Below, one piece after another: positions 1 to 1,085 of a stretch of 1,085 nucleotides of DNA. This DNA is from Naegleria gruberi. Taxonomy: Eukaryota. Positions within the stretch are counted from its first letter, which is position 1. Every line of letters begins with the position of its first letter. The notes beneath the pieces were generated by a model. It was given only the letters and a program-made list of their open reading frames with translations, did no database searches and was not told the DNA's origin. The stretch lies in assembly GCA_000004985.1 (NCBI GenBank), contig GG739571.1. One strand, given 5' to 3'. The translations under genes and the position numbers were made by a program.

Positions 1-552
1 TCTCTTTCTTGTGTTCACAATCTTTTCAGGTTTTGTTTCTTCCTTGCTATCAGATTTCTTATCATTAATATTTGCTACTATAACATCATTGGATTTCTTG
101 GTATCCACGACAGGTTTATGCTTGTTGTCTACCTTTGGAAATTCCGATTTCTTTTCAATAGTTTGTACTTCTGGTTTAGAAGTAGCTGGTGTTGATGGTT
201 GTTTCTTTGGTTGAACAGGACCAACAAAAGATGGATCTCCTTCCTTTGGGAAAGATTTCTTTTCATTAACGTTGGAAACAATTCCAGTGTTAACAGGTGA
301 GCTTACTGAAGCTGGTTTAGATACAGGTTGAGCAGCAGCTGGTTTAGAAACTGGTTGTGCCACTGGAGGTGGTCTTGAAACTGGCTGTGGAGGTGGTTGA
401 GCTCTAGCCACGGACGGAGCAGCAGCTCTTGGTGGTGCTGATGAACCCTTACCGGCATGTGCATACATGCTCAAGAATGCAATCACACACACCAAGACAA
501 CCCCAATTAAAAGTGAAAAATTACTCCTTCTAGGCTTAATCATTATTTGCAT
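1..552 (-). CDS. 5'-complete, 3'-truncated CDS for a secreted or type-II membrane protein with a Pro/Ala/Ser/Lys-rich low-complexity ectodomain. In-frame ATGs lie at 552-550 and 543-541, and the frame stays open to the window edge (at least 181 codons from the 543 start).
   Basis: My own translation of the reverse complement gives (MQI)MIKPRRSNFSLLIGVVLVCVIAFLSMYAHAGKGSSAPPRAAAPSVARAQPPPQPVSRPPPVAQPVSKPAAAQPVSKPASVSSPVNTGIVSNVNEKKSFPKEGDPSFVGPVQPKKQPSTPATSKPEVQTIEKKSEFPKVDNKHKPVVDTKKSNDVIVANINDKKSDSKEETKPEKIVNTRKR... There is no stop in 181 codons. An in-frame TAG at 558-556 bounds the ORF upstream. Codon usage is yeast-preferred (CCA, GCT, GGT, AGA, TTG, AAA, GTT, TCT). The ATG at 543 has A at -3 (caaataATG). 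The ORF track omits this gene because it is truncated; its plus-strand 11-214 ORF is the antisense shadow. Confidence 0.85.
   Translation of the reverse strand, partial: MQIMIKPRRSNFSLLIGVVLVCVIAFLSMYAHAGKGSSAPPRAAAPSVARAQPPPQPVSRPPPVAQPVSKPAAAQPVSKPASVSSPVNTGIVSNVNEKKSFPKEGDPSFVGPVQPKKQPSTPATSKPEVQTIEKKSEFPKVDNKHKPVVDTKKSNDVIVANINDKKSDSKEETKPEKIVNTRKR
304..390 (-). repeat. Degenerate in-frame tandem repeat of three units (about 30, 27 and 27 bp) encoding QPVSRPPPVA / QPVSKPAAA / QPVSKPASV in gene A.
   Basis: On the plus strand, 'ctggtttaga' recurs at 312-321 and 339-348 (27 bp apart), and 'gaaactgg(t/c)tgtg' recurs at 347-359 and 377-389 (30 bp apart). The encoded QPVS[KR]P motif occurs three times with a 9-10 residue period. 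Confidence 0.6.
463..516 (-). other. N-terminal hydrophobic segment of gene A (SLLIGVVLVCVIAFLSMY), preceded by a basic n-region (KPRRS) and followed by AHA|GKG (codons at 456-454). It is either a cleavable signal peptide or an uncleaved type-II signal anchor.
   Basis: About 18 consecutive hydrophobic residues follow two arginines. The Ala-X-Ala motif (AHA) immediately downstream fits the -3/-1 rule for signal peptidase. An 18-residue h-region is long for a signal peptide, so an anchor cannot be excluded from sequence alone. Confidence 0.6.
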
Positions 553-797
553 ACACTAGAGAGAAATGTGTTCTTTTTTTTAAAGATGAATTAATTGAGC
601 ATTGCTTTGGGGTGTTCCATTTACTGTGGGCCATTAACGAGAGCATTGAACACAATAAGGGTATTGTACTTGTATCGGAAGAGATTTGAATGAGCGGTTT
701 TAAAATACTGAATGTTGGGTGTTAGTTGTTTGCAAAAGAATCGGTTTCTGTAAACACAACAACTGCTACACTACAATGGTGAGAAAAGGTAATTGAG
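553..797 (-). promoter_or_regulatory. Intergenic region holding the gene A promoter/5' leader and the gene B 3' UTR/terminator. The minus strand carries A/T-rich TATA-like elements, TATTTTAAAA (707-698) and CTTTAAAAAAAAG (585-573).
   Basis: It sits between the gene B stop (886, or 798 if frameshifted) and the gene A ATG. TATTTTAAAA lies about 150 nt upstream of the ATG, which fits yeast TATA-to-start spacing. The A8 tract at 581-574 is only about 25-35 nt from the ATGs and more likely acts as a nucleosome-excluding poly(dA:dT) element or part of the leader. No experimental support. Confidence 0.3.
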
Positions 798-935
798 TCA
801 ACCATTATCCAATATTGTAAGTTCAGAAATAGTTGTCTCATCACTCTCCATAGTAATAGCATTTGGATCAAAATCATCACCTTGTTTAACTTTTCGATAT
901 TGAATTGCGTTTCCAATAATATATGATAAAATTTC
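798..935 (-). CDS. Putative +1-frame continuation or true C-terminal tail of gene B. It is a 45-codon open stretch (EILSYIIGNAIQYRKVKQGDDFDPNAITMESDETTISELTILDNG*) ending at a TGA at 800-798.
   Basis: It is open in the +1 frame relative to gene B, from the TAA at 938-936 to the TGA at 800-798. Between 878 and 801 it uses almost exclusively yeast-preferred codons (GAT, TTT, CCA, AAT, GCT, ATT, ACT, GAA, TTG, GGT). It encodes a natural-looking acidic tail (DDFDPNAITMESDETTISELTILDNG). It lacks an ATG of its own, which fits a continuation of the upstream ORF through a 1-nt frame change somewhere in 938-889. The third frame (ORF-track 722-916) translates to hydrophobic, W-rich junk. Confidence 0.4.
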   Translation of the reverse strand, partial: EILSYIIGNAIQYRKVKQGDDFDPNAITMESDETTISELTILDNG

Positions 936-1085
936 TTACGAATGATCCATCATAGGCAATTAAATTATCAAAATGTTTTGCATTGTTTAATCTAGCAATT
1001 TCTTCCTCTCTTAAATCATTAGAAATCACATGAATATTATTCATTAAAAACCTAGCAACAGTCTCTTCCGATAATTCTATCAATT
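886..1085 (-). CDS. 3' portion (frame 0) of a CDS whose N-terminus lies beyond the right edge of the window. It ends at a TAA at 888-886. Product unknown.
   Basis: Translation gives ...(L)IELSEETVARFLMNNIHVISNDLREEEIARLNNAKHFDNLIAYDGSFVRNFIIYYWKRNSISKS*. It is open from the window edge through 65 codons, with yeast-like codon usage and charged, helical-looking residues. The first codon (1083-1081) is TTG, so the ORF track's 'M' is an artefact. The last 17 or so codons (VRNFIIYYWKRNSISKS) use rarer codons (CGC, TCG, ATA) and may be out of the true frame; see the 798-935 feature. Confidence 0.7.
   Translation of the reverse strand, partial: LIELSEETVARFLMNNIHVISNDLREEEIARLNNAKHFDNLIAYDGSFVRNFIIYYWKRNSISKS

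What the first reader, a model, noticed from the sequence alone, without database searches (positions are those of the whole stretch)
798..940. Gene B C-terminus is split across two frames: the frame-0 stop at 886 is followed by a codon-optimised acidic tail in the +1 frame down to 798
Gene B's frame 0 is open from the window edge to a TAA at 888-886. The +1 frame (minus strand) is closed upstream by a TAA at 938-936 and then open for 45 codons to a TGA at 800-798. That +1 stretch encodes ...QGDDFDPNAITMESDETTISELTILDNG* with almost purely preferred yeast codons, whereas the frame-0 tail (VRNFIIYYWKRNSISKS) uses rare CGC/TCG/ATA codons. Both frames are open through 935-889, so a single 1-nt change anywhere in that interval would fuse them. 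The interval contains homopolymers (plus 928-931 aaaa, 932-934 ttt, and minus AAAA at 894-891). I rank four explanations. First, an assembly or sequencing indel in a homopolymer. Second, a genuine frameshift allele, i.e. a strain-specific truncation or pseudogenisation. Third, programmed +1 frameshifting near or at the stop; the minus strand reads AAA-AGT-TAA-A, and a +1 slip on AAA-A or stop-proximal shifting would yield ...SISK|VKQGDDFD.... No canonical yeast +1 heptamer (CUU-AGG-C, CUU-AGU-U, GCG-AGU-U) is present, so this is speculative. Fourth, a chance open frame, since AT-rich DNA gives roughly a 5% chance of 45 stop-free codons; but that does not explain the codon quality.
Basis: partly seen in the sequence, partly recalled or inferred. 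Interest (0 to 1): 0.55.

Follow-up and report, generated by a model that had tools for sequence, protein, structure and literature searches.

The report
One-base frameshift in amoeba gene fragment
The two-frame split is real, but it looks like an ordinary one-base insertion, either a sequencing error or a true mutation, inside a single histidine-kinase-like reading frame on a tiny unplaced Naegleria gruberi scaffold, and not a programmed recoding signal.

Summary
On the minus strand, gene B's frame ends at TAA 888-886. The +1 frame is closed by TAA 938-936 and then open for 45 codons to TGA 800-798. The window is not yeast. It is a complete 1,085-bp Sanger scaffold of Naegleria gruberi.

The tail reads as coding. 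Its codon score equals that of held-out real coding sequence, and openness plus score has a joint chance of about 5e-5. The coding signal switches frame at 939-928 (AGA-AAT-TTT), not near the stop.

Removing one base from that A3/T4 run gives ...AYDGSFVR(I/N)LSYIIGNAIQYRK...ISELTILDNG*. This resembles the N-box-to-G1-box half of a histidine-kinase (GHKL) ATPase domain. The support is moderate: a 33.9-bit match to a Bdellovibrio-type kinase, 15 bits against a profile of its orthologues (0 of 5,000 shuffles), and +13-14 bits in an anchored Pfam test. A direct Pfam scan finds nothing. The similarity stops at DNG-TGA, and the rest of the domain is absent.

No GT-AG intron can join the frames. There is no known +1 shift site at the junction, and no orthologues were found.

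Verdict: an ordinary indel. Sequencing error and genuine lesion cannot be separated without reads. Interest is low.

The parts
940..1083 (-). Gene B coding sequence in its original frame (codons start at 1083). It has 48 codons, LIELSEE...NLIAYDGSF, and is open to the scaffold end, so the N-terminus is missing.
   Evidence: When held out of training it scores +0.45 bit/codon in frame and -0.85/-0.93 off frame. The last ~8 residues (LIAYDGSF) fall inside the kinase-profile alignment.
928..939 (-). Inferred junction zone GTA-AGA-AAT-TTT (V-R-N-F), containing AAA 934-932 and TTTT 931-928. One base too many here shifts the frame. Removing one A gives ...SFVRILSY...; removing one T gives ...SFVRNLSY....
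   Evidence: The codon change-point total is highest (28-31 bits) for a junction at 939-928 and drops to 14-18 bits near the stop. Both one-base corrections score 15.4-15.6 bits against the Bdellovibrio kinase profile, with the alignment running across the junction.
886..927 (-). Out-of-frame read-through of the original frame (IIYYWKRNSISKS) ending at TAA 888-886. This is what would be translated from the sequence as written.
   Evidence: Codon score -0.27 bit/codon and CAI-like index 0.45, against 0.77-0.78 for real coding sequence. It adds nothing to the kinase-profile score (-1.2 bits).
936..938 (-). TAA that closes the tail frame on its upstream side.
801..932 (-). True continuation of gene B in the +1 frame: ILSYIIGNAIQYRKVKQGDDFDPNAITMESDETTISELTILDNG.
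   Evidence: Codon score is 29.6 bits over 935-801, with joint chance about 5e-5. Of 41 six-frame stop-to-stop segments in the window, this is the only one that scores against the kinase profiles (8.8/10.4 bits; all others 0.4 or less).
897..920 (-). N-box-like motif IIGNAIQY. In a GHKL ATPase the Asn at 911-909 would be the Mg-ATP-binding residue.
   Evidence: It aligns to NILDNAIYA of the L001 kinase and to the start of Pfam HATPase_c.
801..830 (-). Beta-strand plus G1-box-like ISELTILDNG. The Asp-Asn-Gly is at 809-801.
   Evidence: It aligns to VEISIRDNG of the kinase. The low-confidence AF2 model places strands at residues 76-80 and 85-90 after a helix at 47-66.
798..800 (-). TGA ending the tail frame directly after DNG. 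A GHKL domain would be cut off here.
   Evidence: No F-box or G2-box peptide occurs in any frame of 798-544. A frame-1 extension adds nothing beyond shuffled controls, and Pfam finds no hit.
544..797 (-). Spacer between gene B and gene A, with no consistent coding signal.
   Evidence: Sliding codon scores. No Rfam hit near threshold.
1..543 (-). Gene A (context only). ATG at 543-541, a signal-anchor followed by Pro/Lys-rich repeats. It is annotated in NCBI as 'predicted protein, partial [Naegleria gruberi]'.
   Evidence: 100% identity to P0002, whose only contig is 1,085 bp long.

Best explanation
Gene B and the 'acidic tail' are one reading frame, interrupted by one surplus base in the AAATTTT run at 934-928 (minus strand).

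Read as written, translation leaves the true frame after ...AYDGSFVR, runs through about 15 unrelated codons and stops at TAA 886, so the tail is not made. With one base removed, the ORF reads ...NLIAYDGSFVR(I/N)LSYIIGNAIQYRKVKQGDDFDPNAITMESDETTISELTILDNG*.

This resembles the first half of a histidine-kinase-type (GHKL) ATP-binding domain: the N-box helix, a beta-hairpin and the start of the G1 box. I put that resemblance at about 0.65-0.7. The similarity, and the ORF, end at DNG-TGA. The rest of the domain is not in the 255 nt before the next gene. If the resemblance is real, this is a truncated kinase-like gene fragment and cannot be an active kinase.

The sequence is a whole 1,085-bp unplaced scaffold of the Sanger draft of Naegleria gruberi NEG-M. 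The surplus base is therefore either an uncorrected base-calling or assembly error at low coverage, or a genuine frameshift in a decaying gene copy. I cannot separate these and put them at roughly 50:50.

Shown: the two frames, the coding quality of the tail, the position of the switch, and the absence of a splice solution. Inferred: the kinase relationship and the indel itself. No recoding mechanism is involved.
For: Identity of the DNA: gene A is 100% identical to an NCBI N. gruberi partial protein whose only contig is 1,085 bp. The NEG-M assembly was Sanger-sequenced (PMC9928731).

Coding signal:
- Frame-0 935-882 scores +12.2 bits and 881-801 scores +17.4 bits, while frame-2 939-889 scores -3.4.
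- With training on gene A only, these are +0.73, +0.60 and -0.27 bit/codon, against +0.45 for the held-out gene B exon.
- The joint probability of being open and scoring this well is about 5e-5.
- The change-point optimum is at 939-928.

Homology:
- The corrected protein matches a bacterial CHASE5-HisKA-HATPase_c kinase (L001) over query residues 44-94, which is its N-box to G1 region. The match is 39% identical and scores 33.5-33.9 bits.
- A profile of 23 Bdellovibrio orthologues, with L001 left out, gives 15.4 bits. None of 5,000 shuffles reach this (maximum 8.2), and the alignment crosses the junction.
- Grafted onto the C-terminal half of a real domain, the fragment raises the Pfam HATPase_c score from 55.2 to 69.4 bits and extends the alignment to profile position 6. 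Fourteen shuffles gave 53.5-59.9 bits.
- Only the frame-0 tail, among 41 six-frame segments, scores against the kinase profiles.
- N. gruberi is reported to have 24 histidine kinases (PMC6324907).
Against: - A direct Pfam or NCBIfam scan of the corrected protein gives no hit.
- phmmer against PDB gives no kinase.
- tblastn against plasmids and a scan of genome contigs found nothing.
- A profile of the 4 distant kinases gives only 2.4 bits.
- L001 was the single hit among about 560 candidate stretches. By my estimate of the search space, its corrected significance is only about 0.002-0.01.
- The 'domain' stops at the G1 box with an immediate stop codon. This fits a natural C-terminus of an unrelated protein about as well as a breakpoint.
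- The codon model was trained on only 181-229 in-window codons.
- No orthologue or read data were available, so the indel itself is inferred and not observed.
Confidence: 0.8

Rival explanations
1. Chance open frame. Gene B really ends at TAA 886, and the 45-codon +1 ORF is untranslated 3' sequence that happens to be open and to look kinase-like.
For: AT-rich DNA leaves a specified 45-codon stretch open 4.6% of the time. A second overlapping frame (916-722) is also open by chance. No significant database homologue exists for the tail, and there is no Pfam hit.
Against: The tail's codon score is as good as real coding sequence, and only 0.1% of open shuffles reach it. The frame-2 tail scores like non-coding sequence.
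Confidence: 0.08
2. Programmed +1 ribosomal frameshifting joins the two frames, either at AAT-TTT-A (933-927) or at the stop-proximal AAA-AGT-TAA-A. This would produce the full protein from the sequence as written.
For: The two frames overlap over 935-889, and both flanks look coding. A +1 shift is the right direction.
Against: At the supported junction (939-928) there is no stop, no rare or hungry A-site codon and no known +1 heptamer. The stop-proximal site does contain a stop, but it is disfavoured by 10-15 bits of codon score and loses the profile match. No related sequence conserves the two-frame layout, because none was found. The product would be a truncated domain anyway.
Confidence: 0.02
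3. Splicing. GTAAGA at 939-934 sits exactly on a codon boundary and could start an intron. The candidates are 59 or 50 nt to AAG 881 or AAG 890, or 232 nt to ACTAAC...CAG 708. The C-terminus would then be a different exon.
For: The 5' site is canonical-looking and in phase 0. A textbook branch site and acceptor lie at 726-708, and the 232-nt length is close to the N. gruberi mean of 203 nt. The 232-nt option stays in frame for 28 codons.
Against: No GT...AG pair can reach the tail frame. That needs a donor coordinate of 2 mod 3, and the donors are 0, 1, 0, 0. The short introns lead into frame 1, which scores -14 to -22 bits. The 232-nt option leads to an exon scoring about 0 (+2 to +3.5 bits; CAI-like 0.50). 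The spliced variants score -1.3 to -2.0 against the kinase profile. The profile alignment runs straight through the GTA-AGA codons.
Confidence: 0.04
4. The tail is part of a separate small gene or exon unrelated to gene B. The apparent continuity is coincidental.
For: The tail frame on its own has a coding signal and an internal ATG (851-849).
Against: The coding signal in the tail frame begins right at its upstream stop (935), well before any ATG. Adding the frame-2 residues LIAYDGSFVR raises the profile score by about 5-6 bits.
Confidence: 0.04

Closest known systems
Catalytic/ATP-binding (CA) domain of sensor histidine kinases, Pfam HATPase_c PF02518 (GHKL superfamily). The example here is the CHASE5-HisKA-HATPase_c kinase of Bdellovibrio on L001.
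   Same: It has an N-box-like helix (IIGNAIQY) preceded by ...D/Y-x-S-F/L-x-R-x-L-S. About 35 residues later comes a hydrophobic strand ending in DNG, the start of the G1 box. Spacing and order match, and the alignment is collinear over 51-54 residues.
   Different: It falls below every curated threshold when scanned directly. The first Asn of the N-box is Tyr. The sequence stops after DNG, so the second G1 glycine, the F box, the G2 box and the ATP lid are all missing. The upstream H-box lies outside the window.
Frameshift-disrupted ORFs in draft assemblies: homopolymer indel errors on low-coverage scaffolds, and unitary or duplicated pseudogenes.
   Same: There is a single +1 phase change at a short A/T homopolymer pair. 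Intact codon bias is present on both sides. The scaffold is a tiny unplaced Sanger scaffold, and the gene was left unannotated.
   Different: Nothing distinguishes it from this class. What is missing is read evidence to say which of the two it is.
Programmed +1 ribosomal frameshifting (antizyme UCC-UGA, yeast Ty1 CUU-AGG-C, EST3/ABP140 CUU-AGU-U, bacterial prfB CUU-UGA-C, Euplotes AAA-UAA). Listed from established knowledge.
   Same: An upstream ORF continues in the +1 frame, with an overlap window of 47 nt.
   Different: There is no shift-prone P-site codon paired with a slow A-site codon at the supported junction, and no conservation. The stop-proximal site is contradicted by the codon and profile evidence.

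Membership tests
HATPase_c / GHKL ATPase domain (PF02518) | Score above the Pfam gathering threshold (26.4 bits) in a direct scan | tested here: not met
   The corrected 94-aa protein gave no Pfam hit at E<=10. NCBIfam also gave none.
HATPase_c / GHKL ATPase domain (PF02518) | N box (helix with the conserved Asn, ...N-x-x-x-N-A-x-x-[YF]...) | tested here: inconclusive
   YIIGNAIQY aligns to the N box of L001, its orthologues and the Pfam profile. The Mg-binding Asn-Ala is present. The first Asn is Tyr. In the anchored test the fragment adds 12.5-14.2 bits, about half of what the native fragment adds (28.9).
HATPase_c / GHKL ATPase domain (PF02518) | G1 box D-x-G-x-G | tested here: not met
   Only D-N-G is present. 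TGA 800-798 follows immediately.
HATPase_c / GHKL ATPase domain (PF02518) | F box, G2 box (G-x-G-L-G-L) and ATP lid | tested here: not met
   No such peptide occurs in any frame of 798-544. The frame-1 extension does no better than shuffled extensions. Pfam finds no hit for the doubly corrected protein.
Sensor histidine kinase | HisKA/DHp domain with the phospho-accepting His upstream of the CA domain | not testable with these tools
   The region lies beyond the scaffold end (position 1085). No other copy of the locus could be retrieved.
Programmed +1 ribosomal frameshift site | Shift-prone P-site codon followed by a stop or slowly decoded codon at the point where the frames must join | tested here: not met
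   The junction is placed at 939-928 (AGA-AAT-TTT-ATC). It has no stop and no known heptamer. The TAA-proximal site is disfavoured by 10-15 bits.
Programmed +1 ribosomal frameshift site | Two-frame arrangement conserved in orthologues | not testable with these tools
Spliceosomal intron | GT...AG boundaries whose removal restores one reading frame into the tail | tested here: not met
   All donors and acceptors were enumerated and no pair has the required phase. The alternative spliced products score as non-coding.
Sequencing/assembly indel error | Reads or an independent assembly show a different homopolymer length at 934-928 | not testable with these tools
   No reads or second N. gruberi assembly were reachable. 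There is only circumstantial support: a 1,085-bp unplaced Sanger scaffold.

The most novel reading that the evidence does not exclude
The sequence is correct as written, and N. gruberi expresses a short GHKL-like N-terminal module by +1 ribosomal frameshifting at AAT-TTT-A, a site type not described before. This would be a natural, recoded, truncated kinase-derived protein.
Probability: 0.02. Interest if true: 0.6.

Novelty: already known. Interest (0 to 1): 0.12.

Why it matters
It matters little. The locus adds an unannotated, frameshifted and truncated histidine-kinase-like fragment to the N. gruberi draft. It also shows that very small unplaced scaffolds should not be mined for recoding signals without read support. 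Only if reads confirmed the sequence and peptides spanned the junction would it become a candidate for a new +1 frameshift site in a heterolobosean.

Tried and rejected
- The corrected protein found no homologues in the word-index search, viral contigs, genome contigs, plasmids by tblastn at E<=10, Pfam or NCBIfam. PDB gave only weak OspC3 ankyrin and gamma-tubulin matches at E about 0.14.
- A weak Exo70_C hit (E 0.067) on residues 11-40 of the uncorrected ORF disappeared with the longer sequences, so I dropped it.
- The look-up of encoding contigs for gene A and its paralogue returned no record, so no second copy of the locus could be read.
- Intron models 939..881, 939..890 and 939..708 were rejected on phase, codon score and profile score.
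- A second +1 shift at GGT-TGA into frame 1 (DSITFSHH...ANN*) has a mild codon score of +7.8 bits. It gives no gain against the kinase profiles over shuffled controls and no Pfam hit, so it is not supported.
- The single-sequence AlphaFold model had pLDDT 45. That is too poor for a fold search, so none was run.
- Rfam, tandem-repeat and inverted-repeat scans found nothing relevant.

Full report
**What the window is.** Both ORFs lie on the minus strand. The downstream one, gene A (ATG 543-541, running to the left edge), is 100% identical to an NCBI entry 'predicted protein, partial [Naegleria gruberi]'. That entry's only contig is 1,085 bp long, exactly the window length. The window is therefore a complete, tiny, unplaced scaffold of the N. 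gruberi NEG-M draft. That draft was Sanger-sequenced, is 41 Mb and 33-35% GC, and has on average 1.7 exons per gene and 203-nt introns (PMC8296547, PMC9928731). Gene A has one paralogue, 44% identical, on another tiny scaffold of 1,421 bp. Neither locus could be retrieved elsewhere.

**Checking the observation.** Every coordinate is correct. Gene B's frame is open from 1083 to TAA 888-886. The frame one base ahead is closed by TAA 938-936, then open for 45 codons (935-801) to TGA 800-798. Its translation ends ...QGDDFDPNAITMESDETTISELTILDNG*. The homopolymers and the rare codons in the frame-2 tail are as described.

**Is the tail coding?** I trained a codon log-odds model (in-frame against off-frame) on the coding sequence in the window.
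- The frame-2 tail (939-889) scores -3.4 bits. The other frame scores +12.2 bits over 935-882 and +17.4 bits over 881-801.
- With training on gene A alone, the held-out gene B exon scores +0.45 bit/codon in frame and -0.85/-0.93 off frame. The tail frame scores +0.73 and +0.60. The frame-2 tail scores -0.27. A CAI-like index is 0.78/0.70 for the tail frame against 0.45 for the frame-2 tail.
- Among shuffles that happen to be open, only 0.1% reach the observed 29.6 bits. The joint probability is about 5e-5.

The training set is small (181-229 codons), but the result is consistent across models. The chance-ORF reading is therefore unlikely.

**Where the frames join.** A change-point scan gives the highest total score (28-31 bits) if the reading leaves frame 2 at 939-928. 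The supported site is GTA-AGA-AAT-TTT, containing AAA (934-932) and TTTT (931-928). One base fewer in either run gives ...DGSFVRILSYIIGNAIQY... or ...DGSFVRNLSYIIGNAIQY....

**Splicing.** I enumerated all GT donors and AG acceptors. None can connect gene B's frame to the tail frame, because the donor coordinate would need to be 2 mod 3 and the donors are 0, 1, 0, 0.
- The short candidates (939..881 and 939..890) lead into the third frame, a hydrophobic 52-55-aa reading that scores -14 to -22 bits.
- A textbook-looking 232-nt candidate (ACTAAC 726-721, CAG 710-708) stays in frame for 28 codons. That exon scores about zero.
- All spliced variants score below zero against the kinase profiles.

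Splicing is rejected.

**What the joined protein resembles.** A scan of metagenome contigs with the corrected protein returned one locus, L001. It is a bacterial CHASE5-HisKA-HATPase_c sensor kinase on a 546-kb contig, next to a response-regulator-like ORF, clpX and clpP (Pfam on the kinase only; the neighbours are identified from their sequences). Query residues 44-94 align with kinase residues 399-451 at 39% identity and 33.5-33.9 bits. That region is the N box through the start of the G1 box:
- query: YDGSFVRILSYIIGNAIQY..RKVKQGDDFDPN...ISELTILDNG
- L001: YTASLMRAISNILDNAIYALEKKVHQKADFEPE...VEISIRDNG

None of the search patterns occurs within the 6,159 bases of L001, that is within 3 kb of the match. 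The hit therefore seems to have been found next to a chance pattern match. I estimate that all candidate stretches amount to about 11 Mb, which gives E of about 0.002. This depends on my reading of how the tool works.

I then tested the kinase idea in less circular ways.
1. Anchored Pfam test. I grafted the fragment onto the C-terminal half of a genuine domain.
   - The remainder alone scores 55.2 bits against Pfam HATPase_c (profile positions 44-109).
   - With the corrected fragment it scores 69.4 bits and the alignment extends to profile position 6. The VRNFLSY variant scores 67.7.
   - Fourteen shuffled fragments that keep DNG score 53.5-59.9 (mean 56.5, SD 1.7), and none reaches the N box.
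   - The native fragment scores 84.1.
2. Orthologue profile. A profile of 23 Bdellovibrio orthologues (62-71% identical to L001, L001 excluded) gives the corrected protein 15.4 bits. HMMER's E-value is about 1e-6 for a single target, and none of 5,000 shuffles reach it (maximum 8.2). The alignment covers residues 41/42-94, crosses the junction and ends on the last residue.
3. Six-frame control. Of 41 stop-to-stop segments in all six frames of the window, only the tail frame scores (8.8/10.4 bits; all others 0.4 or less). Joining it to the frame-2 residues adds 5-6 bits.

**Evidence against the kinase relationship.**
- Direct Pfam and NCBIfam scans report nothing.
- PDB returns no kinase.
- The plasmid tblastn and the genome scan were empty.
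- A profile of the four distant kinases gives only 2.4 bits.
- The AlphaFold model is unusable at pLDDT 45. Its helix 47-66 and strands 76-80 and 85-90 do fit the expected topology.

N. gruberi is reported to have 24 histidine kinases (PMC6324907), so the idea is biologically plausible. I put the kinase relationship at about 0.65-0.7. It serves as independent support that the two frames belong together at 939-928.

**The domain is incomplete.** The similarity ends at Asp-Asn-Gly (809-801), and TGA follows at once. No frame of the 255 nt before gene A's ATG contains an F box or a G-x-G-L-G-L motif. A possible second +1 shift into frame 1 has a mild codon score of +7.8 bits over 25 codons. It adds nothing to the profile score compared with shuffled extensions and gives no Pfam hit. 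If the kinase reading is right, this is a truncated kinase-like fragment that could not bind ATP. If it is wrong...TILDNG* may simply be a natural C-terminus.

**Mechanism and verdict.** The best-supported account is an ordinary one-base insertion in a short A/T homopolymer pair inside what is, or was, one ORF. Translation of the sequence as written would stop at TAA 886, and the tail would not be made. Two origins are possible.
- A base-calling or assembly error. This is favoured by the 1,085-bp unplaced low-coverage Sanger scaffold.
- A genuine lesion in a decaying gene copy. This is favoured by the truncated domain.

These cannot be separated without reads, and I put them at about equal odds. 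Together they carry about 0.8.

Programmed +1 frameshifting gets about 0.02. The supported junction has no stop, no slow codon and no known heptamer. The stop-proximal site is contradicted by the codon and profile evidence, and no conservation can be shown. A chance ORF gets about 0.08. Splicing and a separate gene get about 0.04 each.

**Novelty and interest.** Frameshift-split ORFs on tiny draft scaffolds are commonplace, and nothing here departs from that. Interest is 0.12.

Noticed in passing
window 1-1085: The window is an entire 1,085-bp scaffold of the Naegleria gruberi NEG-M Sanger assembly, not yeast. Only gene A carries an NCBI model (a 175-aa partial protein, P0002). Gene B is unannotated.
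   Followed up: yes
window 1-543 (minus strand): Gene A encodes an N-terminal signal-anchor (LLIGVVLVCVIAFL) followed by Pro-rich 9-10-aa repeats (PVSKPAAAQ-like; DNA direct repeats at 310-390 spaced 27/30 nt). It also has three copies of a 15-mer (53, 146, 254) encoding K-K-S motifs. Its only relative in 5.8 billion proteins is a 44%-identical N. gruberi partial protein on another tiny scaffold (1,421 bp). This suggests a small family confined to unplaced scaffolds.
   Followed up: partly
window 939-934, 726-721, 710-708 (minus strand): GTAAGA on a codon boundary, plus ACTAAC and CAG 11 nt further on, would make a textbook 232-nt phase-0 intron. It would lead into a 28-codon ORF (707-624, stop 623-621). 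That exon has no coding signal, and the kinase alignment runs through GTA-AGA, so this looks coincidental.
   Followed up: yes
window 722-916 (minus strand, third frame): A 64-aa ORF overlaps the tail, so two alternative frames are open together over 916-801. It scores strongly negative where it overlaps the tail but mildly positive (+7.8 bits) over 799-725, downstream of the tail's TGA. No homology support was found.
   Followed up: partly
window 798-809 (minus strand): The kinase-like similarity stops exactly at Asp-Asn-Gly, with TGA as the very next codon. Nothing resembling the rest of a GHKL domain is found in 798-544. I could not decide whether this is a natural C-terminus, a breakpoint or a relic.
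   Followed up: partly
window 964-1053 (minus strand; residues 11-40 of the ORF): RFLMNNIHVISNDLREEEIARLNNAKHFDN gave a sub-threshold Pfam Exo70_C match (E 0.067, profile 225-254). The match disappeared when longer versions of the protein were scanned.
   Followed up: partly
L001 1-6159: The metagenome contig carrying the best-matching kinase (Ga0065704_10070138, 546 kb) is Bdellovibrio-like. Twenty-three orthologues, nearly all from Bdellovibrio genomes, are 62-71% identical. The kinase is followed by a response-regulator-like ORF and sits next to clpX and clpP.
   Followed up: partly
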